From Eledone cirrhosa (lineage: Eukaryota), in assembly GCA_964016885.1 (NCBI GenBank), contig OZ024750.1, positions 55,118,001-55,182,000 of the forward strand: DNA of 64,000 nucleotides. The letters run 5' to 3'. Shown one piece after another: positions 1 to 61,350 of the stretch. The notes under the pieces were generated by a model. It was given only the letters and a program-made list of their open reading frames with translations. It was not told the origin of the DNA and searched no databases. The position numbers and the translations under genes are program-made. The stretch's first letter is position 1. Every line of letters starts with the position of its first letter.

Positions 1-390
1 ACACATACATAGATATATATATATACATAATATAAATATACACACATACTCATACATAAGCATATACACATAAGTATATTTACATATACACACGTATATA
101 TACATATACATACATACATATATACACATACATACATATATACATACATACACACATATACATACATATATACATATACACATACATACATATACATACA
201 TATACACATACATATATATATATATACATACACACACATATATACATACACACACATATATACAAACACATACATATACACATATATACACATACATACA
301 CATACATATACATACATATACACATATACACTCATATATACATATACATACATACACACACATACATACATATATACATATACATACATA
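1..390. repeat. Compound (TA/CA/TACA) microsatellite; recurs at ~5841-6339, 11780-12296, 17719-18235, 33484-33959, 49219-49721
   Basis: Directly visible low-complexity tract; it is the source of the spurious MYVC-rich ORFs. Confidence 0.95.
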
Positions 391-938
391 AAGACAAATC
401 CACCTCATGGACGAGAATGCAAGGGCTCCTCCTCTTTGTTTCGGCCGCGGATGGCTAACCCTAACCCCATCCCCGCTCCCCACTGCTCCCAACCTCCAAA
501 CGCAATCCAAAACTTCAGAGTTGGTACCATTAATGTAGGCACCTTATAGGGTGGCTCTAACGAGGTTGTAGAAATGCTTGAACGTAAGGAGGTCGATGTT
601 TGTTGTATTCAAGAGACCAGGTGGAGGGGTGGGTCTGCTAGATTCATCGTGGGTAAAGAACGATGCTATACGCTTTTCTGTGTGGCAAATGACAATGGGC
701 TGGGTATACACATACCACCCCACCTCCCCACCGCAAAGTGGTCGTGGAGGCGCCGCGGCCAAAAAGCACCCAGCCCACACTGTAAAGCTGACGTGGAGGT
801 GCCACGGAAAAAAAAAAGCACCCAGCACTCACTGCAAACGGGGTTGGCGTCAGGAAGGGCACCCAGCTGTAGAAACCAATCCAGAATCAGCTCCCACCCC
901 ACCCTTGCAAGCATGGAAAAGCGGACGTATGATGAAGT

Positions 939-940
<2 letters not shown>
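390..940 (+). mobile_element. Internally deleted RTE-clade LINE (AP-endonuclease N-terminus joined to 3' UTR), unit 1
   Basis: Translates [38 protein letters not shown] (APE N-terminal NV/QE motifs), then jumps to a 3' end AGGAAGGGCA..CCAGCTGTAGAAA..TGCAAGCATGGAAAAGCGGACG shared with the RT-bearing RTEs of this window; followed by (TA)n. Confidence 0.85.
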
Positions 941-1015
<75 letters not shown>

Positions 1016-1581
1016 TATATATATACACATATATATATACACACATATATATCAGTGTACATATATATATACATATATATATATATATAAATGAATATTT
1101 ATTCAATTTAAAGCGCCAATTATCTATATATAACAAGATATGAATTTTTCTAGGGATGGGGAAATTTTCAGTTTGTTTTTATATTTTCACTTCATTTTTT
1201 ACTTTCTATTTAATACAGTCTTTGATCCAATATAATCCTGACAGTATTTGAACCAGTTTACCTCATATATATGTATGCACACACAACACTCAAGTTTCGC
1301 CATCTACTGCTATTTCATTCATATTTATTGTTTAATTAACTCTGGTCTAATTCATCAACTATTGTTAATTATATTATTACGTAGATTTCTTATAAAATCT
1401 AGTGCATATATACGTGTATATATACAGGGAGACACTGTAATAGATGTAAAGAGAGTGGGAGATAGAGTTATAGAAGTAAAGAGAGGGGGAGAACTAAGCG
1501 GTAGATAGAGTAATAGATGTAAAGAGAGGGTTAGAACGTTCAACTTGACAGTCAGTACAGTGTTCAGCATGGTAGCCAGTA

Positions 1582-1653
1582 CATATGCCAACTACCCAAC
1601 CGGCCAGCCAGCCGCATATGCGGTTGACTGGCCAGTTGGGCGGTTGGTATGTG
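1582..1653. other. 72-nt near-perfect palindrome/hairpin between ~57-bp direct repeats (1534-1589, 1654-1710); present in all 8 units
   Basis: Arms CATATGCCAACTACCCAACCGGCCAGCCAGCCGCAT / ATGCGGTTGACTGGCCAGTTGGGCGGTTGGTATGTG: 29 Watson-Crick, 4 G.T and 3 C/A positions by manual pairing. Confidence 0.9.
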
Positions 1654-1756
1654 GAACGTTCAACTACGCAGTCAGTACCAAAGTTCAACATTGTAGCCAG
1701 TGCATATGCCGATCGCCGCGCCCTCTTTGCTCTATTTTAATGACCTGGAACTAAGT

Positions 1757-1869
1757 AAAAAGAGTAGGAGATAACTCGACAAGAGCGGAGAGGGTGAGAT
1801 TCGAACCATGTAAAGTCGTTGGCTCCTGAACTTCGTAAGCGGGGCTGCTACTGACTGAGCAGCGCCGGC
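1757..1869 (-). ncRNA. Candidate Pol III small RNA, family 1, copy 1 (113 nt)
   Basis: Minus strand GCCGGCGCTGCTCAGTCAGTAGCAGC...GGTTCGAATC...CTCTTTTT. A-box-like GCTCAGTCAGTAG in tRNA register (+10), B box GGTTCGAATC, T5 terminator, TATAAG at -34 (1898-1903). Confidence 0.55.
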
Positions 1870-1897
1870 AGCAAGGCAAATCGCGCATAAAATAACG

Positions 1898-1903
1898 CTT
1901 ATA
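1898..1903 (-). promoter_or_regulatory. TATA-like element at -34 of the family 1 gene (present in all 8 copies)
   Basis: TATAAG 34 nt upstream of the inferred +1 G, the same spacing as TATAAATA in family 2; preceded by an oligo-T run. Confidence 0.45.
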
Positions 1904-2170
1904 TCGACAAAAAAAAAAAAAAAATTTCAATGTTGCACTCTTGTTTGTTCTTTTATTTTACGTAAACATTTCGCTGCTCTAGCCTCTTATTTCCTATTAG
2001 ATTACACTTAATTCCATTAAACATTCATTCTTAGTCTCGTGGTAAACTATTTCATCTATATTTATATCGCTGTTACAGCCTTTTATTTCTACATCTATCA
2101 CCTATAGCCACTGTTACGCCGGTAGTATAAGTAGCTTTATAACAAGAAACGATGATATAACTCCACAAAA

Positions 2171-2216
2171 TGTCTTCTTCAGCAAGACACTTCACTTCAT
2201 ATTGCTCCAGTACACC
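2171..2216 (+). mobile_element. Fragment of the SINE central domain
   Basis: CTTCAGCAAGACACTTCACTTCATATTGCTCCAGT resembles CTTGAGCAAGATACTTTATTTCACATTGCTCCAGT of the SINE at 5697-5840 (opposite strand). Confidence 0.6.
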
Positions 2217-2852
2217 GAGTTACACATAGACAGATACATACATACATACACAGATAGAAATGAGAGGTAGATAGAGTAAAAGATTTAAAGAGAGTGTGAG
2301 AAGTACGAGTTAGATAGTGTAAAAGATTTAAAGAGAGGGTGAGAGTGTGACACACATTTATCTGTCTATCTCTCTCTATTTTAACACCGGTCGTTATAAT
2401 TAGTTTTATAACACCGCTATATTACCGACATGAAAGAGGTAAATAATTATTTCTTAAATGTTTAGAACATGTTTCTCTTGTCTTCTTAAATGTATAGAAC
2501 ATGTTTCTTATTTATATTCTTAACATAGCTAGGACCTTATCTCATTTACTGGTCTCTACTTTTAGGGCTTTGCTGGTCCCATGTGCCCTCCATGAAGACA
2601 CACTCGCCCCTTCTCTCTCAGTCTCCGTACTAATTACTACACATACGTATATATATTTATTTTAAGAAACCTTAATGACAAATAATATAAAGTGTTTGTA
2701 AAGTGGGGAAGAGTAGTTTTACGGTGGGGTTGTTATATAGATATCGTTTTTGCAGTGGGGTCGTGACTGGCGGAGTCACTGTTGATGTATATACAAATCA
2801 TGTTTTGGATATAAGTGAAGTTATTTAAGAGATTTAGTTGTTTTGTATACAT

Positions 2853-4830
2853 TCATAACGGTACGCGATGGGACCCACCCACAGCCCCGGCGGACAGAAT
2901 GGAGAAGGCGTTTCCCCGGAGCACGGCAAGGGAGACGCGCTGGAAAAGCCACTCCTACTCGCGGGGCTCACACCTGCGGCTGGCCAGCTCAGCGCCTATG
3001 GTGGTGAGTAAGGAGGTAGCCCTGGGGCCGAGGACACCAGAAGTCTCCACTTCCAGGGGTACGACCGCAAACCTGTCGGAGAGTGAACGATATGTGAGGA
3101 GTTTGGCCCCCTCAGCCTGACGTGCAGCAGAACCTGGGCCAGTCGCAGACTGCACCAGGTTGCGGCTGCAGAAAGTGTCGGTGCAAGTGGCATCCCAGAC
3201 GAGGGGTTTGCCACCGCGGAACGGGAAGATGGTCATGCCATCTAGCCTTTTGCCGTCCCCTCGAGCTGGGAAGGGAAGCCTGCAGCGTCCAAGCCATGCT
3301 TAATGACTTCGTTGAGGGCAGCATGGCGTGGATTGCGGGTGGAGGCCGAAAGAGTCCATGGTGGAACGGCAGCGACATTGGTGTGAGGCCGAGCCTCAGG
3401 GAAACGCCGATGCGCAAGCTATTGTTGTCTAGCTGCGTGCGAGTGGAGAAGGAGGGCAGGGCATGGAGCCAGGCCCCACTGTGGGGTTTGGAGGCTGCAC
3501 GAAAACAAACAAGGCGGTGCTGGTCGAGCTGGCACGTGAGCCTGTCTGAGGCCAGGCTGCACTGGATGGCATCCCAAGTGTGTTGGGGGGGACTTGACGT
3601 CAACAGGGGGAGAAGGAGGAGGAACGTCTACTGGGCTAAGTCCCAGCCGGTCCCACGTCTCACAGGCGGCCACGCGTTCTCTGAACACAGAGGGTTCTGT
3701 TGTGTTTTGAAGAACCCTGCTGAAGAGGACGTGGTACGAGGTTACCGACGAAAGATATGCCGGCAAAGCTAGTGAGATCGGGGACTGGAGGCGAAGGCCG
3801 CCATACCTGACAGGTAAAGTTGCATATCTCATCGGCTGCTGCTCGGATACAAGTTTAGGTGTAGCACAGAGTGTATAGAGGAGCTTCGGCATGGCGTAGC
3901 AGTTCCTCAGCAGAAAGAGAACTGGGTGGCCATCAATCAAGCCCAGTCGGCTCGTGAGAGTCTGGACTTGATGGAGGAGCGGATGGCCGGCGGGTGGATC
4001 GGTGAGGGCATCCTCTTTGGGGGGTCACCTGAACCTGGCGGAGAATGGACCGCACGTCCAAGACGGAGACTGCAAAGCTTGCAGCATCGAGGCTGACATT
4101 CACCACCTCCGACTTGGCTGAGTTGACCTGGAGGTCGATTCCCGCCAGGGCAGGAACCACCGATTGAAGGTCATGGCAGACCGCCTGTACGGGCCCACCC
4201 AAAGTAGCATCATCCAGATACCAAACGTTGAGAGAGGCCGTTATACTCCGGGCGATGTGGTCAATACCAAGGGTGAACAGGAGGGGTCCCAAAGGGTTGC
4301 CCTGTTGGATCCCAGTAGCCAAGGGTATGACCGTATCAGCAGCAAGGCGCATGCTTGGGGCTCCATATGACAGGTAGGCAGAGGGGGCTCGGCTGAGGCA
4401 GGCCTCGAGCAGATGATCCCAGCGTAAAGAGTTGAAGGCATTCCTCATGTCAAACTTGACAATGAGGTGGCTGGAGGCCCTGGATGCCGGTTCCGAGTGT
4501 TACGGACTTGCAGATTACCTTGGCAGCCAGCCTCCGGAAGACATTGCCCACAGCAATGGGGCGTATACCATCCTTTTCTTCCTGAGAGCGGTGAGGCTGG
4601 CCGAAAAAAAGAGGCCTCGAGCATAAGAGTCCGGGGCGCCATGGATGAGCCTATTGGTGAGCGCCACAATTGCACTCAGAAGGCGGCGCCCGGCCTCAGC
4701 GGAGAGGGGAGATATAAACTCCTTGAGGAGGCCTGGTCAGAGACCATCAACATCTCTGCAGCTGCTAGCTGGGAAGGACCTGATGGCGGACATGATGTCT
4801 GCATCAGAAGCCACAAGGAGCAAGTGTGGA
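2853..4830 (-). pseudogene. CRE-like non-LTR retrotransposon (RT + restriction-like endonuclease), fragmented, unit 1
   Basis: Motifs PIAVGNVFRRLAAK, LDMRNAFNSL, GIQQGNPLGPLLF, WYLDDATLGG (RT) and GKPLVWDATCTDT..PLEVETSGVLG (RLE); multiple frameshifts and deletions. The probable 3' UTR continues to ~2655. Confidence 0.85.
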
Positions 4831-4894
4831 TTACAATACAAAACCTCTGAGAATGATTTCTAAGATATTTCACCATAATTAATTTTCATCAATA

Positions 4895-5150
4895 TATATT
4901 AATATTATTATTGTTTATTAGGTCAGGTGGATTGGCCAGAACAATTCTACTCTTCTTTTTTAGATGTCACGATTTTTCATGGCATTCCTGAGATCATTAA
5001 TCTCCAGCTGGAGATCCAGAGACATCTGATGTATGTAGGTGAACCTCAGTCATCCCACTTGGGTCTTACTATGTTTAGGTATCCACCACAGGAGCCAGCT
5101 CATCAGGTCATCCTACCCTCAGCAGCAATGTCCAGCATCTATTGACTTCC
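4895..5150 (-). mobile_element. Degraded 3' end of another LINE (RTE/RTEX-like); present in each unit
   Basis: Minus strand gives AGHCC...WIPKHSK...FTYIHQ...DLRNAMKNRDI*KRRV, resembling the C-terminus of RTE-type ORFs, followed by an (AAT)-rich tail. Confidence 0.5.
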
Positions 5151-5275
5151 GCTCCCTAGTTATTGTGGTAATCTTCGATATCTGGGAATATATTTCTTCT
5201 GCTTAAGGGAGTAATAAATATATAGTTTTAAAAAAAACATATATATACACACACATATATATATGTTGACATTTA

Positions 5276-5470
5276 TAAGAGTTCTCTATCAAAAGCCTTC
5301 TCTATGTCCAAAGCTAAGTATAGTGGCTTATTTTTCTCTAAGAACCTCTTTTGTAGTTGTCTCACTAAGAAGAGGGCATCTGTTGCACTTTTCAGCGGCA
5401 CAAAACCAAACTGCATCTCATACACATACATACATATACATACATACATACATATACACATACATACATA

Positions 5471-5512
<42 letters not shown>

Positions 5513-5670
5513 TTCGTTTTAAGTCCGCTTTTTCCCTGCTTGCAAGGGTGGGACGGGAACTGATTCTGGCTTGATTTCTACAGCTGGATGCCCTTCCTAA
5601 CACCAACCTCATTTACAGTGAGTGCTGAGTGCTTTTTTGCCGTGGCACCTCCACGACCACTTTGCAGTGG
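5276..5670 (-). mobile_element. RTE fragments: 3' UTR with (GAT)n tail (5469-5670) and RT piece (5276-5420); also at ~11230-11610, 17165-17550, 32947-33313, 48682-49048
   Basis: EMQFGFVPLKSATDALFLVRQLQKRFLEKNKPLYLALDIEKAFDR matches the RT in 25175-26311; the 3' end GCAAGCAGGGAAAAAGCGGAC..(GAT)n matches other RTE tails. Confidence 0.85.
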
Positions 5671-5696
5671 AATGATATGGACCCCAGTCCCTATCA

Positions 5697-5840
5697 TCTC
5701 ATTTCTACAGCTGAGTAAACTGGAGCAATGTGAAATAAAGTATCTTGCTCAAGGAAACAACACATCACCCGGTCTGAGAATTGAACTCACAACCTTTCGA
5801 TTGCCAGGCCAATGCTCGAACCACTAAGCCATGTGCCTCC
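5697..5840 (-). mobile_element. tRNA-derived SINE; copies at ~11636-11779, 17577-17718, 33340-33483, 49075-49218
   Basis: GGAGGCACATGGCTTAGTGG (A box) ... GTGAGTTCAATTC (B box), then a body CTTGAGCAAG..ACTTTATTTCACATTGCTCCAG..CACTCAGCTG-like. Confidence 0.75.
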
Positions 5841-6339
5841 ATATACATATACATATACATACACATACATATACATACATATATATATACATACATACAT
5901 ATATACACATACATACATACATACACATATACATACATATATATACATACATACACATACATACATATATATATATACATAATATAAATATACATACATA
6001 CACATACATAAGCATATACACATAAGTATATATACATATACACACGTATATATACATATACATACATACATATATACATATACATACATATATACACATA
6101 CATACATACATACATACACACATATACATACATATATACATATACACATACATACATATACATACATATACACATACATACATATATATATATACATACA
6201 CACACATATATACAAACACATACATATACACATATATACACATACATACACATACATATACATACATATACACATATACACTCATATATACATATACATA
6301 CATACACACACATACATACATATATACATATACATACAT

Positions 6340-6889
6340 AAAGACAAATCCACCTCATGGACGAGAATGCAAGGCTCCTCCTCTTTGTTTCGGCCGCGGA
6401 TGGCTAACCCTAACCCCATCCCCGCTCCCCACCGCTCCCAACCTCCAAACGCAATCCAAAACTTCAGAGTTGGTACCATTAATGTAGGCACCTTATAGGG
6501 TGGCTCTAACGAGGTTGTAGAAATGCTTGAACGTAAGGAGGTCGATGTTTGTTGTATTCAAGAGACCAGGTGGAGGGGTGGGTCTGCTAGATTCATCGTG
6601 GGTAAAGAACGATGCTATAAGCTTTTCTGTGTGGCAAATGACAATGGGCTAGGTATACACATACCACCCCACCATCCCACCGCAAAGTGGTCGTGGAGGC
6701 GCCGCGGCAAAAAAGCACCCAGCCCACACTGTAAAGCTGACGTGGAGGTGCCACGGAAAAAAAAAAAAGCACCCAGCACTCACTGCAAACGGGGTTGGCG
6801 TCAGGAAGGGCACCCAGCTGTAGAAACCAATCCAGAATCAGCTCCCACCCCACCCTTGCAAGCATGGAAAAGCGGACGTATGATGAAGT

Positions 6890-6891
<2 letters not shown>
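6340..6891 (+). mobile_element. Internally deleted RTE, unit 2
   Basis: Near-identical to 390-940. Confidence 0.85.
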
Positions 6892-6956
<65 letters not shown>

Positions 6957-7693
6957 TATATATATACACATATATATATACACACATATATATCAGTGTA
7001 CATATATATATACATATATATATATAAATGAATATTTATTCAATTTAAAGCGCCAATTATCTATATATAACAAGATATGAATTTTTCTAGGGATGGGGAA
7101 ATTTTCAGTTTGTTTTTATATTTTCACTTCATTTTTTACTTTCTATTTAATACAGTCTTTGATCCAATATAATCCTGACAGTATTTGAACCAGTTTACCT
7201 CATATATATGTATGCACACACAACACTCAAGTTTCGCCATCTACTGCTATTTCATTCATATTTATTGTTTAATTAACTCTGGTCTAATTCATCAACTATT
7301 GTTAATTATATTATTACGTAGATTTCTTATAAAATCTAGTGCATATATACGTGTATATATACAGGGAGACACTGTAATAGATGTAAAGAGAGTGGGAGAT
7401 AGAGTTATAGAAGTAAAGAGAGGGGGAGAAATAAGCGGTAGATAGAGTAATAGATGTAAAGAGAGGGTTAGAACGTTCAACTTGACAGTCAGTACAATGT
7501 TCAGCATGGTAGCCAGTACATATGCCAACTACCCAACCGGCCAGCCAGCCGCATATGCGGTTGACTGGCCAGTTGGGCGGTTGGTATGTGGAACGTTCAA
7601 CTACGCAGTCAGTACCAAAGTTCAACATTGTAGCCAGTGCATATGCCGATCGCCGCGCCCTCTTTGCTCTATTTTAATGACCTGGAACTAAGT

Positions 7694-7806
7694 AAAAAGA
7701 GTAGGAGATAACTCGACAAGAGCGGAGAGGGTGAGATTCGAACCATGTAAAGTCGTTGGCTCCTGAAGTTCGTAAGCGGGGCTGCTACTGACTGAGCAGC
7801 GCCGGC
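7694..7806 (-). ncRNA. Candidate Pol III small RNA, family 1, copy 2
   Basis: Same as 1757-1869 with one substitution seen (plus strand GAAGTTCG vs GAACTTCG). Confidence 0.55.
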
Positions 7807-8789
7807 AGCAAGGCAAATCGCGCATAAAATAACGCTTATATCGACAAAAAAATAAAAAAATTTCAATGTTGCACTCTTGTTTGTTGTTATTTTATTTTAC
7901 GTAAACATTTCGCTGCTCTAGCCTCTTATTTCCTATTAGATTATACTTAATTCCATTAAACATTCATTCTTAGTCTCTATTTCATCTATATTTATATCGC
8001 TGTTACAGCCTTTTATTTCTACATCTATCACCTATACCCACTGTTACGCCGGTAGTATAAGTAGCTTTATAACAAGAAACGATGATATAACTCCACAAAA
8101 TGTCTTCTTGAGCAAGACACTTCACTTCATATTGCTCCAGTACACCGAGTTACACATAGACAGATACATACATACATACACAGATAGAAATGAGAGGTAG
8201 ATAGAGTAAAAGATTTAAAGAGAGTGTGAGAAGTACGAGTTAGATAGTGTAAAAGGTTTAAAGAGAGGGTGAGAGTGTGACACACATTTATCTGTCTATC
8301 TCTCTCTATTTTAACACCGGTCGTTATAATTAGTTTTATAACACCGCTATATTACCGACATGAAAGAGGTAAATAATTATTTCTTAAATGTTTAGAACAT
8401 GTTTCTCTTGTCTTCTTAAATGTATAGAACATGTTTCTTATTTATATTCTTAACATAGCTAGGACCTTATCTCATTTACTGGTCTCTACTTTTAGGACTT
8501 TGCTGGTCCCATGTGCCCTCCATAAAGGCACTCTAGTCCCTTCTCTGAGGCCCCGTACTAATTACTACACATACGTATATATATTTATTTTAAGAAACCT
8601 TAATGACAAATAATATAAAGTGTTTGTAAAGTGGGGAAGAGTAGTTTTACGGTGGGGTTGTTATATAGATATCGTTTTTGCAGTGGGGTCGTGACTGGCG
8701 TATAATAATGAGTCACTGTTGATGTATATACAAATCATGTTTTGGATATAAGTGAAGTTATTTAAGAGATTTAGTTGTTTTGTATACAT

Positions 8790-10781
8790 TCATAACGGTA
8801 CGCGATGGGACCCGCCCACAGCCCCGGCGGACAGAATGGAGAAGGCGTTTCCCCGGAGCACGGCAAGGGAGACGCGCTGGAAAAGCCACTCCAACTCGCG
8901 GGGCTCACACCTGCGGCTGGCCAGCTCAGCGCCTATGGTGGTGAGTAAGGAGGTAGCCCTGGGGCCGAGGACACCAGAAGTCTCCACTTCCAGGGGTACG
9001 ACCGCAAACCTGTCGGAGAGTGAACGATATGTGAGGAGTTTGGCCCCCTCAGCCTGACGTGCAGCAGAACCTGGGCCAGTCGCAGACTGCACCAGGTTGC
9101 GGCTGCAGAAAGTGTCGGTGCAAGTGGCATCCCAGACGAGGGGTTTGCCACCGCGGAACGGGAAGATGGTCATGCCATCTAGCCTTTTGCCGTCCCCTCG
9201 AGCTGGGAAGGGAAGCCTGCAGCGTCCAAGCCATGCTTAATGACTTCGTTGAGGGCAGCATGGCGTGGATTGCGGCTGGCACTGTGGCGACAGGAAAGCG
9301 GGTGGAGGCCGAAAGAGTCCATGGTGGAACGGCAGCGACATTGGTGTGAGGCCGAGCCTCAGGGAAACGCCGATGCGCAAGCTATTGTTGTCTAGCTGCG
9401 TGCGAGTGGAGAAGGAGGGCAGGGCATGGAGCCAGGCCCCACTGTGGGGTTTGGAGGCTGCACGAAAACAAACAAGGCGGTGCTGGTCGAGCTGGCGCGT
9501 GAGCCTGTCTGAGGCCAGGCTGCACTGGATGTCATCCCAAGTGTGTTGGGGGGGGACTTGACGTCAACAGGGGGAGAAGGAGGAGGAACGTCTACTGGGC
9601 TAAGTCCCAGCCGGTCCCACGTCTCACAGGCGGCCACGTGTTCTCTGAACACAGAGGGTTCTGTTGTGTTTTGAAGAACCCTGCTGAGGAGGACGTGGTA
9701 CGAGGTTACCGACGAAAGATATGCCGGCAAAGCTAGTGAGATCGGGGACTGGAGGCGAAGGCCGCCATACCTGACAGGTAAAGTTGCATATCTCATCGGC
9801 TGCTGCTCGGATACAAGTTTAGGTGTAGCACAGAGTGTATAGAGGAGCTTCGGCATGGCGTAGCAGTTCCTCAGCAGAAAGAGAACTGGGTGGCCATCAA
9901 TCAAGCCCAGTCGGCTCGTGAGAGTCTGGACTTGATGGAGGAGCGGATGGCCGGCGGGTGGATCGGTGAGGGCATCCTCTTTGGGGGGTCACCTGAACCT
10001 GGCGGAGAATGGACCGCACGTCCAAGACGGAGACTGCAAAGCTTGCAGCATCGAGGCTGACATTCACCACCTCCGACTTGGCTGAGTTGACCTGGAGGTC
10101 GATTCCCGCCAGGGCAGGAACCACCGATTGAAGGTCATGGCAGACCGCCTGTACGGGCCCACCCAAAGTAGCATCATCCAGATACCAAACGTTGAGAGGG
10201 GCCGTTATACTCCAGGCGATGTGGTCAATACCAAGGGTGAACAGGAGGGGTCCCAAAGGGTTGCCCTGTTGGATCCCAGTAGCCAAGGGTATGACCGTAT
10301 CAGCAGCATGGCGCATGCTTGGGGCTCCATATGACAGGTAGGCAGAGGGGGCTCGGCTGAGGCAGGCCTCGAGCAGATGATCCCAGCGTAAAGAGTTGAA
10401 GGCATTCCTCATGTCAAACTTGACAATGAGGTGGCTGGAGGCCCTGGATGCCGGTTCCGAGTGTTACGGACTTTCAGCCAGCCTCCGGAAGACATTGCCC
10501 ACAGCAATGAGGCGTATGCCATCCTCTTTCTTCCTGAGAGCGGTGAGGCTGGCCGAAAAAAAGAGGCCTCGAGCATAAGAGTCCGGGGCGCCATGGATGA
10601 GCCTATTGGTGAGCGCCACAATTGCACTCAGAAGGCGGCGCCCGGCCTCAGCGGAGAGGGGAGATATCAACTCCTTGAGGAGGCCTGGTCAGAGACCATC
10701 AACATCTCCGCAGCTGCTAGCTGGGAAGGACCTGATGGCGGACATGATGTCTGCATCAGAAGCCACAAGGAGCAAGTGTGG
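8790..10781 (-). pseudogene. CRE-like RLE LINE, unit 2
   Basis: Same RT/RLE motifs; additional small deletion near 10470. Confidence 0.85.

Positions 10782-49217: not shown

Positions 49218-49251
<34 letters not shown>

Positions 49252-50270: not shown

Positions 50271-50272
<2 letters not shown>
49722..50272 (+). mobile_element. Internally deleted RTE, unit 8
   Basis: Shares unit 1 variants (RCYTLF..HLPT). Confidence 0.85.
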
Positions 50273-50307
<35 letters not shown>

Positions 50308-51161: not shown

Positions 51162-52155
51162 AGCAAGGCAAATCGCGCATAAAATAACGCTTATATCGAC
51201 AAAAAAAAAAAAAAATTTCAATGTTGCACTCTTGTTTGTTGTTCTTTTATTTTACGTAAACATTTCGCTGCTCTAGCCTCTTATTTCCTATTAGATTACA
51301 CTTAATTCCATTAAACATTCATTCTTAGTCTCGTGGTAAACTATTTCATCTATATTTATATCGCTGTTACAGCCTTTTATTTCTACATCTATCACCTATA
51401 GCCACTGTTACGCCGGTAGTATAAGTAGCTTTATAACAAGAAACGATGATATAACTCCACAAAATGTCTTCTTGAGCAAGACACTTCACTTCATATTGCT
51501 CCAGTACACCGAGTTACACATAGACAGATACATACATACATACACAGATAGAAATGAGAGGTAGATAGAGTAAAAGATTTAAAGAGAGTGTGAGAAGTAC
51601 GAGTTAGATAGTGTAAAAGATTTAAAGAGAGGGTGAGAGTGTGACACACATTTATCTGTCTATCTCTCTCTATTTTAACACCGGTCGTTATAATTAGTTT
51701 TATAACACCGCTATATTACCGACATGAAAGAGGTAAATAATTATTTCTTAAATGTTTAGAACATGTTTCTCTTGTCTTCTTAAATGTATAGAACATGTTT
51801 CTTATTTATATTCTTAACATAGCTAGGACCTTATCTCATTTACTGGTCTCTACTTTTAGGGCTTTGCTGGTCCCATGTGCCCTCCATGAAGACACACTCG
51901 CCCCTTCTCTCTCAGTCTCCGTACTAATTACTACACATACGTATATATATTTATTTTAAGAAACCTTAATGACAAATAATATAAAGTGTTTGTAAAGTGG
52001 GGAAGAGTAGTTTTACGGTGGGGTTGTTATATAGATATCGTTTTTGCAGTGGGGTCGTGACTGGCGTATAATAATGAGTCACTGTTGATGTATATACAAA
52101 TCATGTTTTGGATATAAGTGAAGTTATTTAAGAGATTTAGTTGTTTTGTATACAT

Positions 52156-54132
52156 TCATAACGGTACGCGATGGGACCCACCCACAGCCCCGGCGGACAG
52201 AATGGAGAAGGCGTTTCCCCGGAGCATGGCAAGGGAGACGCGCTGGAAAAGCCACTCCAACTCGCGGGGCTCACACCTGCGGCTGGCCAGCTCAGCGCCT
52301 ATGGTGGTGAGTAAGGAGGTAGCCCTGGGGCCGAGGACACCAGAAGTCTCCACTTCCAGGGGTACGACCGCAAACCTGTCGGAGAGTGAACGATATGTGA
52401 GGAGTTTGGCCCCCTCAGCCTGACGTGCAGCAGAACCTGGGCCAGTCGCAGACTGCACCAGGTTGCGGCTGCAGAAAGTGTCGGTGCAAGTGGCATCCCA
52501 GACGAGGGGTTTGCCACCGCGGAACGGGAAGATGGTCATGCCATCTAGCCTTTTGCCGTCCCCTCGAGCTGGGAAGGGAAGCCTGCAGCGTCCAAGCCAT
52601 GCTTAATGACTTCGTTGAGGGCAGCATGGCGTAGATTGCGGGTGGAGGCCGAAAGAGTCCATGGTGGAACGGCAGCGACATTGGTGTGAGGCCGAGCCTC
52701 AGGGAAACGCCGATGCGCAAGCTATTGTTGTCTAGCTGCGTGCGAGTGGAGAAGGAGGGCAGGGCATGGAGCCAGGCCCCACTGTGGGGTTTGGAGGCTG
52801 CACGAAAACAAACAAGGCGGTGCTGGTCGAGCTGGCGCGTGAGCCTGTCTGAGGCCAGGCTGCACTGGATGGCATCCCAAGTGTGTTGGGGGGGACTTGA
52901 CGTCAACAGGGGGAGAAGGAGGAGGAACGTCTACTGGGCTAAGTCCCAGCCGGTCCCACGTCTCACAGGCGGCCACGCGTTCTCTGAACACAGAGGGTTC
53001 TGTTGTGTTTTGAAGAACCCTGCTGAGGAGGACGTGGTACGAGGTTACCGACGAAAGATATGCCGGCAAAGCTAGTGAGATCGGGGACTGGAGGCGAAGG
53101 CCGCCATACCTGACAGGTAAAGTTGCATATCTCATCGGCTGCTGCTCGGATACAAGTTTAGGTGTAGCACAGAGTGTATAGAGGAGCTTCGGCATGGCGT
53201 AGCAGTTCCTCAGCAGAAAGAGAACTGGGTGGCCATCAATCAAGCCCAGTCGGCTCGTGAGAGTCTGGACTTGATGGAGGAGCGGATGGCCGGCGGGTGG
53301 ATCGGTGAGGGCATCCTCTTTGGGGGTCACCTGAACCTGGCGGAGAATGGACCGCACGTCCAAGACGGAGACTGCAAAGCTTGCAGCATCGAGGCTGACA
53401 TTCACCACCTCCGACTTGGCTGAGTTGACCTGGAGGTCGATTCCCGCCAGGGCAGGAACCACCGATTGAAGGTCATGGCAGACCGCCTGTACGGGCCCAC
53501 CCAAAGTAGCATCATCCAGATACCAAACGTTGAGAGGGGCTGTTATACTCCAGGCGATGTGGTCAATACCAAGGGTGAACAGGAGGGGTCCCAAAGGGTT
53601 GCCCTGTTGGATCCCAGTAGCCAAGGGTATGACCGTATCAACAGCATGGCGCATGCTTGGGGCTCCATATGACAGGTAGGCAGAGGGGGCTCGGCTGAGG
53701 CAGGCCTCGAGCAGATGATCCCAGCGTAAAGAGTTGAAGGCATTCCTCATGTCAAACTTGACAATGAGGTGGCTGGAGGCCCTGGATGCCGGTTCCGAGT
53801 GTTACGGACTTGCAGATTACCTTGGCAGCCAGCCTCCGGAAGACATTGCCCACAGCAATGGGGCGTATGCCATCCTCTTTCTTCCTGCGAGCGGTGAGGC
53901 TGGCCGAAAAAAAGAGGCCTCGAGCATAAGAGTCCAGGGCGCCATGGATGAGCCTATTGGTGAGCGCCACAATTGCACTCAGAAGGCGGCGCCCGGCCTC
54001 AGCGGAGAGGGGAGATATCAACTCCTTGAGGAGGCCTGGTCAGAGACCATCAACATCTCCGCAGCTGCTAGCTGGGAAGGACCTGATGGCGGACATGATG
54101 TCTGCATCAGAAGCCACAAGGAGCAAGTGTGG
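52156..54132 (-). pseudogene. CRE-like RLE LINE, unit 8
   Basis: Same motifs. Confidence 0.85.
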
Positions 54133-56605
54133 ATTACAATACAAAACCTCTGAGAATGATTTCTAAGATATTTCACCATAATTAATTTTCATCAATATAT
54201 ATTAATATTATTATTGTTTATTAGGTCAGGTGGATTGGCCAGAACAATTCTACTCTTCTTTTTTAGATGTCACGATTTTTCATGGCATTCCTGAGATCAT
54301 TAATCTCCAGCTGGAGATCCAGAGACATCTGATGTATGTAGGTGAACCTCAGTCATCCCACTAGGGTCTTACTATGTTTAGGTATCCACCACAGGAGCCA
54401 GCTCATCAGGTCATCCTACCCTCAGCAGCAATGTCCAGCATCTATTGATTTCCGCTCCCTAGTTATTGTGGTAATCTTCGATATCTGGGAATATATTTCT
54501 TCTGCTTAAGGGAGTAATAAATATATAGTTTTTAAAAAAACATATATATACACACACATATATATATGTTGTCATTTATAAGAGTTCTCTATCAAAAGCC
54601 TTCTCTATGTCCAAAGCTAAGTATAGTGGCTTATTTTTCTCTAAGAACCTCTTTTGTAGTTGTCTCACTAAGAAGAGGGCATCTGTTGCACTTTTCAGCG
54701 GCTTAATTAATTAATGAGGTTTAATTAATGAGGAATTTTGAGGTATTTATAACAATTATTAATTATTTCATTACTGAGATATCATTTGAAGGACTTACTA
54801 ATGTTTTTATTTATTAATTATTTTATTAGTAACTTAACATGTGGTTCTTGTATAAAATTATGTTGGAAGATTTTAGGAAGATGCTATGTAGCCGGTCGCG
54901 GTAAAATAGACGCCCAGGCTATGTAGCCGGTAAGAGTGTCAGACTCCATGTGTTGCGGCCCTTTATGGTCTGAGTTAAGACAATTTAAAATCTTTTCCAC
55001 CATCAATTGTTAAAAAACAAGTTAAAATCATTTTGTCGTCCATTTGTAACGTACGTTACACTTTAGTTACATACACATATACTATGTTACATACACACAT
55101 CTACTGTGTTACATACACACACATCAACTGGGTTACATACACACACATCTACTGCGTTACATACACATCTACTGTGTTACACACACATCTACTGTGTTAC
55201 ATACACACACATCTACTGAGTTACATACACACACATCTACTGTGTTACATACACACACATCTTCTGTGTTACATACACACATCTATGTTACATACACACA
55301 TCTACTGTGTTACATACACACACCTGTGTTACATACACACACATCTACTGAGTTACATACACACAGATCTACTGTGTTACATACACACACATCTACTGTG
55401 TTACACACATCTTCTATGTTACATACACACAATCTACTGTGTTACATACACACAATCTACTGAGTTACATACACACACATCTACTGAGTTACATACACAC
55501 ACATGTACTGTGTTACATACACACATCTACTGTGTTACATACATACACATCTACTGTGTTACATACATACACATCTACTGTTACATACACACATCTACCG
55601 TGTTACACACACACATCTACCGTGTTACACACACACATCTACCGTGTTACACACACACATCTACTGAGTTACATACACATATACTGAGTTACATGCAAAC
55701 ACACATCTACTCTGTTACATATACACATCTACTGTGTTACATACACATCTACTGTGATACACACACACACATCTACTCATACATATTCATAAATAGACAC
55801 ACATTATACAAATAATTATTACATACACACACATCTCTGTAATAATTCAGGAAGGAAGGGGCTGGTGAAACGCTATAGCAATGTGTGTGTGTTGTGTACC
55901 TTTCAGGTTTACCGGTTTCGTAGCCTATTTGAAGATTTTATTATAATTATGAACCTTATAATTCAATTAATTATGAATAATTTTGAGCTATTTATCACAA
56001 TTGTTAGTTAATTACTAACATAGTAACTTACCATATGGTTGTTAATATAGAATTTTGTTGGAAGACTTTAATTTAGATAGGAACCATTTCCATAGTACGA
56101 GAACTAATTTTGGCTGGGTTTCTACCAAAAGGGTTAATGAAGAATTTTGAACAATTTACTAAAATTATTAATTATTTCATTACTAAGATAATGTGTGAAT
56201 ACACAATTATATGTGTGTATATATATATAAACAGTATATATATATATAGTATATATATATATAAACAGTATATATATATATAGTATATATATATATAAAC
56301 AGTATATATATAGTATACAAAAGATGTAGTGGGATAGTGTGTAGTCTTAAGACAAGTCTGTCCAGATAGCTGCGCTGTAACTTACACTTATTGGGACTGT
56401 GTGTTGGCAAGCAGGCCTGTATTTTGGGATCTAGCTGGTCCATTATGAGGGAGGTCTGGTTAGTTGGCAGCACCATGCCTTACTTGTGGTATATGTATGT
56501 ATAGAAATAAGTTATTGTATATGCACAACTGTCCATCTATATGTATACATGTATGTTTACTTATATCTTTGCATACATATATACATTTTCAGATGTATAC
56601 ACGTA

Positions 56606-58525
56606 ATGGTCACCCGGATAGTAAACCAAGTCATACAGAATGGGGTTGTTCTGAAGGACTGGCGTAGCAGCATCATCATTAACTGTTACAAGGGTAAAGG
56701 AGATGCCCTAGATAGGAGTAACTATAGAGGCATTAAATTAATCGACCAGGTCATGAAGGTCACGGAAAAAGTAATAGCGCAACTAATCAGAGAGAGAATT
56801 GATCTAGATGAAATGCAGTTCGGGTTTGTGTCAGGTAAAAGTACCACAGACGCTCTTTTCATTGTACGACAACTACAGGAGAAGTACCTAGTTAAAAGTA
56901 AACCCCTATACTTAGCTTTTGTTGACTTGGAGAAAGCCTTCGACAGAGTACCCCGTTCCATTATCTGGTGGGCTCTTAGAAAACTAGGTGTTGAGGAATG
57001 GCTTGTGAGAGCTATACGAGCCATGTATAAAGAAACAGTCAGCAAGGTTAGAATTAACAACGAATATAGTGAAGAGTTTAGCGTAAAAGTTGGTGTTCAT
57101 CAGGGCTCCGTCCTTAGCCCCCTACTATTTATTATTGCCCTTCAGGCTATAACAGTGGAGTTCAAGACCGGCTGCCCATGGGAACTCCTATACGCAGATG
57201 ATCTAACGCTTATAGCTGAATCAATGGCCGAGCTAGAGAAGAAATTCCAAACATGGAAGCAAGGCCTAGAATCAGAAGGCCTTAAAATTAACCTGGCTAA
57301 GACTAAAGTTCTAGTTTGTAGGAAAGAAAATAAGGCGCCGGTCCCTTCCGGGAAATGGCCATGCTCAGTGTGTAGGAAAGGCGTAGGTAGAAACTCCATT
57401 TTATGTCCCAAATGCAAAGTATGGGTTCATAAAAGATGTAGTGGGATCACAGGTAAGCTAACTAAGAACATAGATTTTACATGTGGCCGGTGCTCTGGTG
57501 CAATAAGTAGCAGCAAGTGCCCACAAAATACTAGCTCTTTCAATTGCGCAGAGGGTTCTATAGAAATAGTGGACAGCTTCCGTTACCTGGGTGACAAAAT
57601 CAGCAGTGGGGGAGGGTGCTCTGAAAGTACAGTAGCTAGAGTCAGAACTGGATGGAAAAAGTTCAGAGAGCTTATACCACTATTAGCCGCTAAAGGGTTC
57701 TCCCTAAAAATGAAAGGCAGGTTGTATGATGCCTGCATATGAACAGCAATGTTGCATGGCAGTGAGACCTGGGCATTGTGTGCAGAGGATATACGCAGAC
57801 TAGAGAGGAACGAAGCTTGCATGCTTCGCTGGATGTGTAATAGTAATATATGTGAACGGCAAAGCATAAACGAACTAAGGGAAAAATTAGAAATAAGAGG
57901 GATCAGATGTTGTGTACTCGAGAGAAGACTACGTTGGTATGGTCCACGTGATGCGGATGAAAGACGACAGCTGTATAAAAAAAATGCAGGGCAATAAAGA
58001 TAGACGGTAGCCACGGAGTAGGCAGACCCAGAAAAACCTGGGACGACTTGATAAATTCCGACCTCACACACTTACACCTCTCCAAGACAATGTCACTGGA
58101 CCGAGATCTTTGGCGGTACTCAGTAATAGAGAAGACCCGCCTTACCTAGATACAAAGTAAAACCTACTACAGTCAGTAGGCACCTCTAACAAAATACACC
58201 CCCACCCCATCCACACCGCCCCTTTCAATGTAAAGTTATGTTGGTGCCACAACATCCAGGCCGAAACAAATGAGGTCGTGTAGGTGTCACGACAAAAAAA
58301 AAAAACACAGTCCACGCAGTAATGTGGCCGTGTAGGTAACACGGTAAAAACCTCTCAGTCCCACACTGTAAATGCGGTTGGTGTTAGGAAGGGCATCCAG
58401 CTGTAGAAAACCCGCCAGACAGTCCTATGCGAGCAAGACAACCACTCTTGCCTCAAGTGGGAAAATTCCCGTCCAAACCCATGCAAGCGTGGAATATGGA
58501 CGTTAAACGATGATGATGATGATGA

Positions 58526-58529
<4 letters not shown>
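56606..58529 (+). pseudogene. 5'-truncated RTE LINE, block 3
   Basis: Near-identical to 25175-27097, with the same stop (57740-57742). Confidence 0.93.
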
Positions 58530-58565
<36 letters not shown>

Positions 58566-58714
58566 CTTTGACATTTCTTAGAAAAAAAATGAAAAAGTTT
58601 TGTGAGAACCCCAATGTTTATTTATTTTATTTTATTTTTAAATAAAATTAATAACATTAATTTTATTTTGAAATTAGGTTTATAAATATTAATTATCAGC
58701 AGACCTTTGTAGCA

Positions 58715-58825
58715 GTCTTGGCGGCTTAGTGGGAAGTACCAGAGATGGTGAGGTCCTTGTCTGTAGGTTCAATCCTGGTCTGGGAGTTCAATCATTGCTG
58801 TAATGTGTCCTGTTAATCTTTTTTT
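58715..58825 (+). ncRNA. Family 2a, block 3
   Basis: Matches 27278-27388; TATA at 58681. Confidence 0.55.
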
Positions 58826-59084
58826 AAATTTTCCTCAGAAAAAACTGAAAATCTTTGGTGAGAACCCCAATGTCTATTTATCTAATATAATTTAATTTAT
58901 TTTATTTTATTTTACTTTAGTTAAATTGTCAAAACCACTGGTGATCTAAAGTTAGAGGAGACAGATAAAATAGACATATTGTCTCCTCAACCTTTAGATC
59001 TTCAGTGTTTTCGACAATTTAACTAAAATAAAAAATTAAATTCAATATAATTAAATAAATAGGGGTTCTCTTTTTCAAAGAGAT

Positions 59085-60365
59085 CATCATCATCATCATC
59101 ATCATCATTTTACGTCCGCTTTTCCCTGCTTGCAAGGGTGGGACGGGTCTTATTCAGCACAGCATCTCTCCACTCGTCACGGTCCCTCGTCATCTCCACC
59201 GTGAGCTTCAATGATCTGAGGTCTGTTCTCACCACCTCCGCCCATGTTTTTCGTGGTCTACCTCTACCACGTCTTCCTTCAACTGGCATTTCCTGGCACT
59301 TCTTCACCCATCGGTCATCCTCCATGCGCATCACATGTCCATACCACCTCAGTCTCCTCTCCCGTACACTACATTCTATCCCTCTCAGACACAGTTTCTC
59401 TCTCAACACATTTATGCTGGGTCGTTCACGCACATTTACACTGCACATCCAACGGAGCATGCTTGCCTCATTTCTCTCCAGCCGTCGCATATCTTCTGCG
59501 GTAGCTGCCCATGTCTCACTACCATGCAGCATCGCGCTCCTCACACAGGCATCATACAACCGGCCTTTCGTACGCAGGGAGAAACCCTTCTTCGTCAACA
59601 GAGGAAGCAGCTCCCTAAACTTCTTCCAACCCGTCCTTATTCTAGATACTATGGCCTCGGAACACCCTCCTCCCATGCTAATCTGATCTCCTAGGTACCG
59701 GAAGCTATCCACCACTTCTATAGCGCCCTCTCGCATTTGAAAAATGTGTCTATCAGTGCGACTTCTACTGTCTAATTTCCCTGTACATCTACTGCATACA
59801 TATTTCTCCCTACCTGTTAGTTTGCCTGCTATCCCGCTACATCTCTTGTGTACCCAGGACCTACATTGTGTGCATTTTATAGAATTTATGCCAGTTCCTT
59901 TTCTGCATATCGAACATGGCCATTTCCCTGACGGAATCAGGGTTTTGTCCTCTTTTCTACTCATCAACACTTTTGTCTTAGCTAGATTTACTCTCAGTCC
60001 TCTTGCTTCCAACTGCTGTTTCCATAGCCGGAATTTATTCTCTAGCTCCTCTACTGATTCTGCCATAAGAGCCAGATCGTCAGCATAGAGAAGTTCCCAT
60101 GGACAGCCAGTCTTAAACTCCTCTGTTATGGCTTGGAGGACTATAATGAACAAGAGCGGGCTGAGGACCGAACCCTGATGTACTCCTACTTGTATCTGGA
60201 ATTCCTCACTAAACTCCATTCCTACCCTGACTTTACTGAGAGTACCTCTGTACAAAGTTTGCACTGTCCTTACAAGCCATTCCTCAACACCCAGCTTCCT
60301 TAGGGACCACCAGATGACAGATCGGGGTACCCTATCAAAGGCCTTCTCTAGGTCAACAAAGGCTA
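59085..60365 (-). mobile_element. Young 5'-truncated RTE insertion (different subfamily), open RT frame
   Basis: Open from LAFVDLEKAFDRV through YADD and the PHD-like finger to a stop at 59110; (GAT)n tail; absent from blocks 1 and 2; AGAT present on both sides. Confidence 0.93.
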
Positions 60366-60385
60366 AGATATAGAAAGAAAATTAT

Positions 60386-60523
60386 AAAAGATTAACATGA
60401 CACCTTACATGTATCTCATGGACCAGGATTGAACCTGAGTCCCCAATTCAACCCTCAGACCAGGATTGAACACCCAGAACAGGATCTCACCATCTCTGGT
60501 ACTTCCCACTAAGCTACCGAGAC
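60386..60523 (-). ncRNA. Family 2b, block 3
   Basis: Matches 27669-27806. Confidence 0.55.
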
Positions 60524-60749
60524 TGATACAAAGATGTACTGAAATTTAATATTTATAAACCTACTTTCAAAATAAAATTAAAAATAAAATATATATATAT
60601 ATATATTCCTTTGACATTTCTTAGAAAAAAGAACTGAAAAAGTTTTGTGAGAACGCCAATGTCTATTTATTTTATTTTATTTTTAATTAAATTAGTTATA
60701 TTTTGAAAGTAGGTTTATAAATATTAATTTTCAATAGACCTTTGTAGCA

Positions 60750-60851
60750 GTCTTGGTGGCTTAGTGGGAAGTACCAGAGATGGTGAGATCCTTGTCTGTA
60801 AGTTCAATTCTTGCTTGGAGACATGTCTAATGTGTCCTATTAATCTTTTTT
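60750..60851 (+). ncRNA. Family 2c, block 3
   Basis: Matches 28033-28134. Confidence 0.6.
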
Positions 60852-60972
60852 AAATTTTCCTTTTACATCTCTTAGAAATAACTGAAAATCTTTGGTGAGA
60901 ACCCCAATGTCTATTTATCTAATATAATTAATTTAATTTAATTTAATTTAATTTTTATTTTAGTGAAACCAC

Positions 60973-61313
60973 TGTTGTATTCAAGAGACCAGGTGGAGGG
61001 GTGGGTCTGCTAGATTCATCGTGGGTAAAGAACGGTGCTATGAACTTTTCTGGGTGGGAAATGACAATGGGCTGGGTATACACATACCACCCCACCACCC
61101 CACCGTAAAGTGGTCGTGGAGGCGCCACGGCAAAAAAGCACCCAGCCCGCTCTGTAAAGCTGACGTGGAGGTGCCACGGAAAAAAAAAAAGCACCCAGCA
61201 CTCACTGCAAACTGGGTTGGCGTCAGGAAGGGCACCCAGCTGTAGAAACCAATCCAGAATCAGCTCCCACCCCACCCTTGCAAGCATGGAAAAGCGGACG
61301 TATGATGAAGTTG
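60973..61313 (+). mobile_element. Internally deleted RTE, unit 9 fragment (B variant)
   Basis: Matches 43981-44321. Confidence 0.85.
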
Positions 61314-61350
61314 ATATATATATATATATATATTAGTATATATATACACA

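What the first reader, a model, noticed from the sequence alone, without database searches (positions are those of the whole stretch)
390..61350. The array may be a two-family Pol III small-RNA gene cluster padded with dead transposons
Seen: 17 candidate genes (8 family 1, 9 family 2). The two families show no obvious similarity beyond the boxes, yet both place TATA exactly 34 nt before a +1 G that puts the A box in tRNA register. The TE pieces that belong to the repeat share disabling lesions across copies, so they died before amplification. Established: 5S, U2, tRNA and snaR clusters are multi-kb tandem units with TE-filled spacers under concerted evolution. Inference: the array is maintained for small-RNA dosage rather than being a neutral macrosatellite.
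Basis: inference. Interest (0 to 1): 0.72.

Follow-up and report, generated by a model that had tools for sequence, protein, structure and literature searches.

The report
Macrosatellite carrying decayed tRNA-like promoters
A probable octopus-type genome holds a long tandem repeat whose units carry 17 copies of two worn-down tRNA-like sequences with polymerase III promoter signals; they are no better conserved than the DNA around them, so they are likely passengers of the repeat rather than genes kept for dosage, and whether they make RNA is untested.

Summary
There are 8 family-1 and 9 family-2 elements, each with a B box, a T-run and TATA at -34, in a 5.9-kb tandem unit with a 15.7-kb higher-order repeat. 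Its retrotransposon pieces share lesions. But the 17 elements are 4 distinct sequences and 2 independent TATA placements. -34 to -29 is the usual TATA position upstream of tRNA genes. Family 1's A box misses 3 of 8 consensus positions. Both families are degenerate tRNA derivatives copied with their flanks; ARAGORN and Rfam call neither. The dosage inference is not supported. Family 1 is not significantly more conserved than spacer across 8 copies (P 0.12-0.20). Family-2 paralogues differ as much in the predicted RNA (77-84% identity) as in the flanks (76-95%). Two other organisms keep the spacer at about 99%. Best reading: a transposon-rich macrosatellite carrying probably transcribable tRNA-derived cassettes as passengers, like Xenopus OAX or newt PolIII/TAN. 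Expression could not be tested. A real small-RNA family (family 2, loosely vault-like) is not excluded (about 15%).

The parts
1..61351 (.). Tandem array: ~5.94-kb monomer A (A1-A3 whole, A4 cut at 23243), then a 15.7-kb higher-order unit (block B + 5'-trimmed A + 3'-trimmed A); ends in an A stub at 60973-61351
   Evidence: self-BLAST and k-mer offsets 5.9/15.7 kb; 14716-43377 matches 30501-59084 at 98.7%
1757..1869 (-). Family 1 copy 1: 113 nt, weak A box, B box at +64, T5 at +109
1899..1903 (-). TATAA at -34 of family 1 (same in all 8 copies)
7694..7806 (-). Family 1 copy 2 (one substitution)
13617..13729 (-). Family 1 copy 3
19589..19701 (-). Family 1 copy 4
29371..29483 (-). Family 1 copy 5
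35299..35411 (-). Family 1 copy 6
45106..45218 (-). Family 1 copy 7
51049..51161 (-). Family 1 copy 8
27278..27386 (+). Family 2 paralogue p1, block B1 (109 nt; partial B-box duplication)
27669..27806 (-). Family 2 paralogue p2, B1 (138 nt; two B boxes)
28033..28133 (+). Family 2 paralogue p3, B1 (101 nt)
43013..43121 (+). Family 2 p1, B2
43394..43531 (-). Family 2 p2, B2
43758..43858 (+). Family 2 p3, B2
58715..58823 (+). Family 2 p1, B3
60386..60523 (-). Family 2 p2, B3
60750..60850 (+). Family 2 p3, B3
27127..27888 (.). Imperfect ~750-bp palindrome (p1 arm + p2 arm, tail to tail) centred on a 54-bp inverted repeat at 27478-27601, with (TA)n at both ends; p3 (27889-28255) is a third arm cut by the junction to monomer A
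2855..4830 (-). 5'-truncated, frameshifted non-LTR retrotransposon (RT domain; CRE clade assigned from recalled C-terminal motifs), once per monomer
   Evidence: Pfam RVT_1; cephalopod and insect homologues; frames
391..930 (+). RTE-type 5' fragment with a shared stop, followed by SINE/RTE-tail-like pieces (labels partly recalled)
5700..5842 (-). Ordinary tRNA-headed SINE in 5 monomers: perfect A box, B box at 53 (broken in one copy), no T4 terminator close by
   Evidence: (tRNA 22.8 bits, below the 29 cut-off)
25223..27085 (+). 5'-truncated RTE-type element with a shared stop at 26309 in all three B blocks
59084..60365 (-). Copy-specific young RTE-type insertion (1285 bp, 423-aa open frame) between p1 and p2 of B3
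1582..1653 (.). 72-nt near-perfect hairpin about 100 nt downstream of the family-1 terminator, in every monomer
   Evidence: z -6.9

Best explanation
This is a transposon-rich tandem repeat (5.9-kb unit, 15.7-kb higher-order unit) that carries two degenerate tRNA-like cassettes with TATA, A box, B box and T-run; they were likely copied as DNA with their flanks, are predicted to be transcribable by polymerase III, and were likely amplified as passengers rather than kept for RNA dosage. Steps. (1) Shown: tRNA-like vestiges (family-2 boxes in exact tRNA register, acceptor stem 5-6 of 7; family-1 head resembles a tRNA 5' end). (2) Shown: family-2 paralogues share upstream and downstream flanks and form an inverted duplication. 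Inferred from this: they spread by DNA duplication, not as SINEs. (3) Inferred: TATA at -34 is inherited tRNA-gene geometry. TFIIIC on the A/B boxes would place TFIIIB/TBP on it and give RNAs of about 101-138 nt (family 2) or 113 nt (family 1, weaker A box). (4) Shown: TE fragments were broken before amplification and kept decaying; block B entered at microhomology junctions. Inferred: unequal crossing-over and gene conversion homogenised the copies (0.1-1.6% apart) regardless of content.
For: Family 1 plus promoter has 1 variable column in 149 across 8 copies, against 43 of 2119 in non-CRE spacer (Fisher P 0.20; P 0.12 against all the rest). 19% of equal-sized windows do as well, and a 336-nt non-gene spacer has 0. 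Family-2 paralogues, predicted RNA vs flanks: p1/p3 85 of 101 vs 77/81, 53/59 and 80/91; p1/p2 90/109 vs 51/59 and 44/57; p2/p3 78/101 vs 51/59 and 50/66. There are 0 compensatory changes among 13 or 20 predicted pairs. Folding z-scores are -0.15 to -2.3. B-box arms are duplicated in p1 and p2. No ARAGORN or Rfam call for either family, even at E<=10. TATA at -34 to -29 from the mature 5' end is the usual place in tRNA genes that have one (PMC3082873, passages). A run of organism A holds an ~86%-identical, low-depth contig over family 1 plus ~100 nt of upstream flank (record 3). Organism B has one 1.8-kb contig with 15 differences, and organism C four spacer pieces with 0-2 differences, so spacer is shared along with the element. 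Young copy-specific RTE insertions occur.
Against: The bodies have drifted too far from tRNA for ARAGORN or Rfam, yet all four types keep TATA, a B-box core and a T-run, which suggests selection for transcription at some stage. In family 2, +10 to +38 (29 nt) and the 18-nt TATA block are invariant across three paralogues. The 1119-column family-2 block has 0 variable sites across 3 B copies, against 10 of 3094 elsewhere in B (P 0.045), although the RNAs alone give P 0.32. TATA is not a general feature of animal tRNA genes (PMC3082873). The copies are young, so within-array tests have little power. Organism A's best runs may be the source of the window and are not independent.
Confidence: 0.58

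Rival explanations
1. One reading: a functional two-family Pol III small-RNA cluster whose copy number is maintained for dosage, like 5S, U2 or snaR arrays.
For: Complete promoter-terminator anatomy in 17 of 17, far above shuffles. 29-nt invariant core in family 2. Family 1 nearly invariant, 1 site in 149. Single contigs over the spacer in organism A have depths of 3300-4900 against 3-9 for the other listed contigs, which suggests (not a copy number) a very large array.
Against: No significant gene-over-spacer conservation. Family 2 is absent from monomers A1-A3, so it cannot explain the basic 5.9-kb repeat. The family-1 A box is poor. No conserved structure with covariation. Relatives keep the spacer as well.
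Confidence: 0.15
2. The cassettes are internal parts of non-autonomous mobile elements: family 2 the arm of a foldback/MITE-like palindrome in (TA)n, family 1 part of a GA-repeat-bounded dispersed module. They would then themselves be 'dead transposon' padding. This agrees with the best explanation on neutrality and differs on origin.
For: ~750-bp palindrome with modular AT-rich sub-repeats, and p1 and p3 starting at the same base after a (TA)n run. The family-1 3' half aligns with the neighbouring GA-rich repeat (3 of 500 shuffles; shared 12-mer at 1788 and 2333). Summed contig depth in organism A is 12-18 thousand over family 1 against 4-5 thousand over most spacer, with joints that skip the A-box/TATA part (29427-29624, 29391-29617) and a diverged relative. 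Small-RNA-bearing mobile elements are known (Helenus/Ajax, PMC10886601, passages).
Against: No clean terminal inverted repeats or target-site duplications: the right arm lacks the outer ~60 nt. Contig depth cannot rank parts, and the joints have sides under 30 nt at 80% likeness, which the tool flags as often spurious. The second GA block does not align above chance (148 of 500). No genome was available to count dispersed copies.
Confidence: 0.2
3. Family 2 is the cephalopod vault RNA (or a similar fast-evolving Pol III RNA), amplified secondarily.
For: 101-138 nt with A box, one or two B boxes and a T-run, which fits the 80-150-nt range (PMC8824774, PMC7916137, passages). A 9-bp helix joins +12-20 to the pre-terminator region in p1 and p3 with pair probabilities 0.58-0.98. 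Vault RNAs are reported in two lophotrochozoan lineages (PMC2770079, passage).
Against: No RF00006 hit at E<=10. The motif that follows box A in Lottia and Helobdella vault RNAs (PMC8824774) is absent. The helix has probability 0 in p2 and shows no two-sided change. The length variation lies after the B box, not between the boxes.
Confidence: 0.06

Closest known systems
Xenopus OAX / satellite I, newt PolIII/TAN, Rana/polIII (as described in PMC10702118, Background section read whole)
   Same: Tandem repeat whose unit holds a tRNA-derived segment not matched to a known SINE; PolIII/TAN is transcribed in vitro.
   Different: PolIII/TAN and Rana/polIII units are ~360 and ~250 nt and each has one cassette. 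Here the unit is 5.9 kb (15.7 kb higher order), mostly TE debris, with two unrelated cassettes and an upstream TATA; transcription is untested.
5S rDNA, U2 (RNU2), tRNA and snaR tandem clusters (recalled; not read here)
   Same: Multi-kb homogenised units with TE-filled spacers.
   Different: In those the RNA is a known family, expressed and conserved above spacer. Here there is no Rfam family, no expression data and no significant excess conservation.
tRNA-derived SINEs of octopus (OK, OR1, OR2; Ohshima and Okada 1994, not held; title seen in reference lists and OR2 named as a CORE SINE in PMC4758252)
   Same: tRNA-like head with A and B boxes.
   Different: Families 1 and 2 end in a T-run at 100-140 nt, show no LINE tail or TSD, and share upstream flanks between paralogues. 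I could not compare sequences with OK/OR1/OR2.
Helenus/Ajax/Cassandra (TRIMp3) small-RNA-bearing elements (PMC10886601, passages)
   Same: Pol III promoter carried inside a mobile unit; tandem arrays occur.
   Different: There the tRNA-like part lies inside the LTR. In family 2 it lies between the repeated AT-rich blocks, and the units are inverted. The paper lists bivalves, not cephalopods.
Vault RNA (Rfam RF00006)
   Same: Size, A/B boxes, T-run, possible 5'-3' helix (p1, p3).
   Different: No model hit, no post-box-A motif, helix not kept in p2, none in family 1.

Membership tests
Dosage-maintained RNA gene array (5S/U2/snaR type) | Multi-kb tandem units, homogenised | tested here: met
   4-66 differences over 4229 columns among 8 copies
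Dosage-maintained RNA gene array (5S/U2/snaR type) | RNA part conserved better than spacer | tested here: not met
   family 1 P 0.12-0.20 (low power); family-2 paralogues 77-84% in the RNA vs 76-95% in near flanks; B block P 0.045 for the whole block, 0.32 for the RNAs
Dosage-maintained RNA gene array (5S/U2/snaR type) | Abundant discrete transcript, Pol III occupancy | not testable with these tools
   no RNA run available to lay
tRNA gene | Cloverleaf passing ARAGORN or Rfam RF00005 | tested here: not met
tRNA gene | A box at 8 and B box in register | tested here: inconclusive
   family 2 met (0-1 mismatch, G53); family 1 has 3 A-box mismatches and its B box at 64
tRNA gene | Paired acceptor and T stems | tested here: inconclusive
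   with G-U allowed: family 2 acceptor 5-6/7, T 2-5/5; family 1 4/7 and 2/5
tRNA-derived SINE | tRNA-derived head | tested here: met
   family-1 nt 1-30 vs a phage tRNA-Ile 5' end: 1 of 2000 shuffles; p3 vs the same tRNA: 17 of 2000; p3 vs the local SINE head: 5 of 500
tRNA-derived SINE | Copies with unrelated flanks, TSD, LINE-derived or simple-repeat tail | tested here: not met
   paralogues share 86-90% over -60..-1 and share downstream blocks; the diverged family-1 relative includes upstream flank
Vault RNA | 80-150-nt Pol III unit with boxes A and B and a T-run | tested here: met
   definition from PMC8824774 passage
Vault RNA | Conserved motif after box A / RF00006 match | tested here: not met
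Vault RNA | Panhandle joining the 5' and 3' ends | tested here: inconclusive
   p1 and p3 yes, p2 no, family 1 no; no covariation
Vault RNA | Association with major vault protein | not testable with these tools
   needs an experiment
OAX / PolIII-TAN-type tRNA-bearing tandem repeat | Tandem unit with an internal tRNA-derived segment | tested here: met
OAX / PolIII-TAN-type tRNA-bearing tandem repeat | Pol III transcription in vitro or in oocytes | not testable with these tools
   needs an experiment
TRIMp3 (Helenus) or foldback transposon | LTRs with PBS and TSD, or complete terminal inverted repeats with TSD | tested here: inconclusive
   palindrome and (TA)n flanks seen, right end incomplete; PBS and PPT not searched

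The most novel reading that the evidence does not exclude
Family 2, perhaps with family 1, is an expressed, lineage-specific Pol III small RNA built from tRNA (possibly the cephalopod vault RNA), with a TATA-assisted promoter and amplified to hundreds of copies by a macrosatellite. That would be a case of a new RNA gene family arising inside a TE-filled array.
Probability: 0.15. Interest if true: 0.7.

Novelty: new member of a known kind. Interest (0 to 1): 0.33.

Why it matters
On the likely reading it is a cephalopod-type example of a tRNA-bearing long tandem repeat, a kind described from amphibians. It is also a caution that Pol III boxes inside a homogenised array do not show selection. 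If the cassettes prove expressed and conserved, they would be uncatalogued Pol III RNAs in a lineage known for RNA-level novelty, and the exact coordinates make this a one-experiment test (Northern blot or small-RNA sequencing).

Tried and rejected
No whole genome is held, so dispersed copies could not be counted. The run search listed 14 runs, 10 holding part of 27130-29700 and no RNA holder; this says nothing on expression. The small shares of organisms D-G (0.05-0.09) were not interpreted. Only 4 of the 14 runs were laid, and only on 28730-30829 (family 1 side), so family 2 has no outside data. Lack of cover is not evidence: organism C has no depth in 3 of 30 bins, two of them family 1, and organism D has depth in 7 of 30 bins, only on TE and GA-rich pieces. 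Metagenome scans with one exact pattern per family gave 0 and 0. Rfam weak hits were microsatellite or hairpin artefacts far below cut-offs. Bacterial tRNA-Ser origin of family 1 was rejected: the 3' 23 nt match phage tRNA-Ser (E 0.03), but the 5' 62 nt do not align above chance (265 of 2000), the stems do not pair, and 12 of those bases recur in the local GA repeat. Family 2 vs phages gave only chance hits. The tRNA-plus-hairpin (viral TMER-like, recalled) idea was set aside because a T5 run separates family 1 from the hairpin and Rfam gives no miRNA at cut-off. The RTE homologue search gave marine invertebrates at about 50% and did not fix the taxon. The control row for phage tRNA-Ile stems used a wrong offset and was not used. 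Literature searches (CC-licensed PMC and bioRxiv only) listed no paper describing this array. Ohshima and Okada 1994 is not held, Stadler et al. 2009 was not read, and no supplements were opened; SINE consensus files there could bear on identity. Earlier-findings look-ups by place and by sequence were empty.


Full report
Setting. The window is animal DNA rich in (TACA)n, (TA)n and (CAT)n repeats. The best named homologues of its CRE-like reverse transcriptase are from cuttlefish and Octopus sinensis, at 34-50% identity. The SINE pieces look octopus-like from recall only, and the RTE search did not narrow the taxon. I call it a probable cephalopod. No whole genome is held.

Array anatomy. Self-comparison shows periods of 5.9 and 15.7 kb. 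Monomer A (about 5.94 kb) holds, in order: a TACA microsatellite, an RTE-type 5' fragment and SINE-like pieces, a TA microsatellite, an AT-rich spacer, a GA-rich repeat, a 72-nt hairpin, family 1 (minus strand), more spacer, a 5'-truncated CRE-like element (2855-4830, minus), spacer and an ordinary tRNA-headed SINE. A1-A3 are whole and A4 is cut at 23243. Block B (23244-28255: 22-bp minisatellite, RTE fragment, family-2 triplet) follows and rejoins A at a short microhomology. B plus two trimmed A units then repeats at 15.7 kb (98.7% identity). The array ends at 61351, where an RTE with an 895-aa open frame begins. The eight A copies differ by 4-66 sites over 4229 columns.

Observation check. 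There are 8 family-1 and 9 family-2 copies, TATA at -34 in 17 of 17, and T-runs at +97 to +135. The families are unrelated beyond the boxes. The combined motif occurs 4 times in 9.3 kb of non-redundant sequence against 0.01 in shuffles (post hoc criteria). The 17 reduce to four sequences and two independent TATA placements. TATA starts at 1.4-3.7% of flank positions. PMC3082873 (passages) gives -34 to -29 from the mature 5' end as the usual TATA position for tRNA genes that have one, and says animals generally lack a shared upstream motif. So the spacing is what a tRNA-type promoter that kept its flank would show. Family 2 has a good A box and its B-box G at exactly 53; family 1 misses 3 of 8 A-box positions and has its B box at 64. 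Shared TE lesions are confirmed, alongside copy-specific ones and a young 1285-bp insertion in B3.

What the elements are. Neither ARAGORN nor Rfam calls them. The only tRNA-model hit, 22.8 bits, is the ordinary SINE. Vestiges of tRNA remain: family-2 acceptor stems pair at 5-6 of 7, and the family-1 head matches a tRNA 5' end better than all but 1 of 2000 shuffles. The family-1 3' end equals a phage tRNA-Ser end over 23 nt. Its 5' part does not align with that tRNA, and the same 12-mer lies in the neighbouring GA repeat, with which its 3' half aligns, so I read it as a chimera. Family 2 sits in a ~400-bp arm with AT-rich sub-repeats. p1 and p2 form a tail-to-tail palindrome around a 54-bp inverted repeat, p3 is a third, cut arm, and p1 and p3 start at the same base after (TA)n. 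Shared flanks rule out independent SINE insertions. p1 and p2 have duplicated B-box arms.

Test of selection. Family 1 plus promoter has 1 variable column in 149; non-CRE spacer has 43 in 2119 (P 0.20). 19% of windows are as quiet, and a 336-nt spacer has none. Family-2 paralogues are 77-84% identical over the predicted RNA and 76-95% over near flanks. There are no two-sided changes in predicted pairs and folding is mostly unremarkable (z -0.15 to -2.3). Results on the other side: +10 to +38 and the TATA block are invariant in all three paralogues; all four types keep TATA, B-box core and T-run; and the whole family-2 block shows 0 of 1119 variable sites among three B copies against 10 of 3094 (P 0.045; RNAs alone 0.32). 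AT-rich spacers are also quiet, so base composition may explain the last point. Power is low because the copies are young.

Outside data. Ten of 14 listed runs, from 6 studies, hold part of 27130-29700. Four were laid on 28730-30829. In organism A, which may be the source, single spacer contigs have depth 3300-4900 against 3-9 for other listed contigs. This is not a copy number but suggests a very large array. One 287-nt contig of depth 5.9 covers family 1 and ~100 nt of upstream flank with 31 substitutions and 9 gaps, a diverged relative that kept its flank. Two weakly supported joints skip the A-box/TATA part. Organism B has one 1819-nt contig across the region with 15 differences (14 shown, none in family 1; several sit where the window's own copies differ). 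Organism C has four spacer pieces with 0-2 differences. Close relatives therefore share the whole unit, not the RNA in new spacers.

Mechanism. Shown: anatomy, tRNA vestiges, shared flanks, TE decay before and after amplification, homogenisation. Inferred: DNA-level duplication of tRNA-type cassettes, probable TFIIIC/TFIIIB-driven transcription (family 2 more likely than family 1), and passive amplification by unequal exchange. I put this at 0.58. The mobile-element origin of the cassettes is at 0.20, the dosage-selected cluster at 0.15 and vault RNA at 0.06.

Comparison. It works most like the tRNA-bearing tandem repeats of amphibians: OAX, PolIII/TAN and Rana/polIII (PMC10702118, Background read whole). 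It differs in unit size and in having two cassettes. It fails the tested membership features of tRNA genes, SINEs and vault RNA (definition from PMC8824774 and PMC7916137 passages; lophotrochozoan vault RNAs noted in PMC2770079 passage). Cephalopod genomes are full of tRNA-derived loci: about 17,000 in giant squid (PMC6962438 passage), which raises the prior for relics. Helenus/Ajax (PMC10886601 passages) show that mobile elements can carry Pol III promoters. Searches listed no description of this array; the library lacks most subscription papers, including the 1994 octopus SINE paper.

Verdict. It is a new member of a known kind, interest 0.33. The open question is expression, which one small-RNA experiment would settle.

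Noticed in passing
window 1582-1653 and homologues in each monomer: 72-nt near-perfect hairpin (-49.4 kcal/mol, z -6.9) between two ~55-nt direct repeats, about 100 nt past the family-1 terminator; only a weak mir-341 hit (27 vs 90 bits). Organism C has an ~85% version.
   Followed up: partly
window 59084-60365 and 61352-64000: Two young RTE-type elements with long open frames (423 aa and 895 aa; RT plus PHD finger): one inserted in a single B block, one ending the array.
   Followed up: partly
window 1090-1425: 336-nt AT-rich spacer with no variable site in 8 copies; a 361-nt contig of organism A and a 250-nt contig of organism C match it without substitutions.
   Followed up: partly
window 27478-27601: 54-bp inverted repeat (87%) with a 16-nt centre, at the axis of the family-2 palindrome.
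   Followed up: partly
window 23607-24354 (and 39343-40070, 55066-55777): 22-bp minisatellite with about 33 copies and copy-number differences between B blocks.
   Followed up: no
window 2855-4830: The CRE-like element is highly repeated at 80%+ likeness in organism A (summed contig depth above 100,000); copies 5 and 7 keep a nearly open 3' frame.
   Followed up: partly
window 1783-1806: Family-1 3' end is identical over 23 nt to a cyanophage tRNA-Ser end; probably coincidence through the GA repeat.
   Followed up: yes
   Followed up: partly
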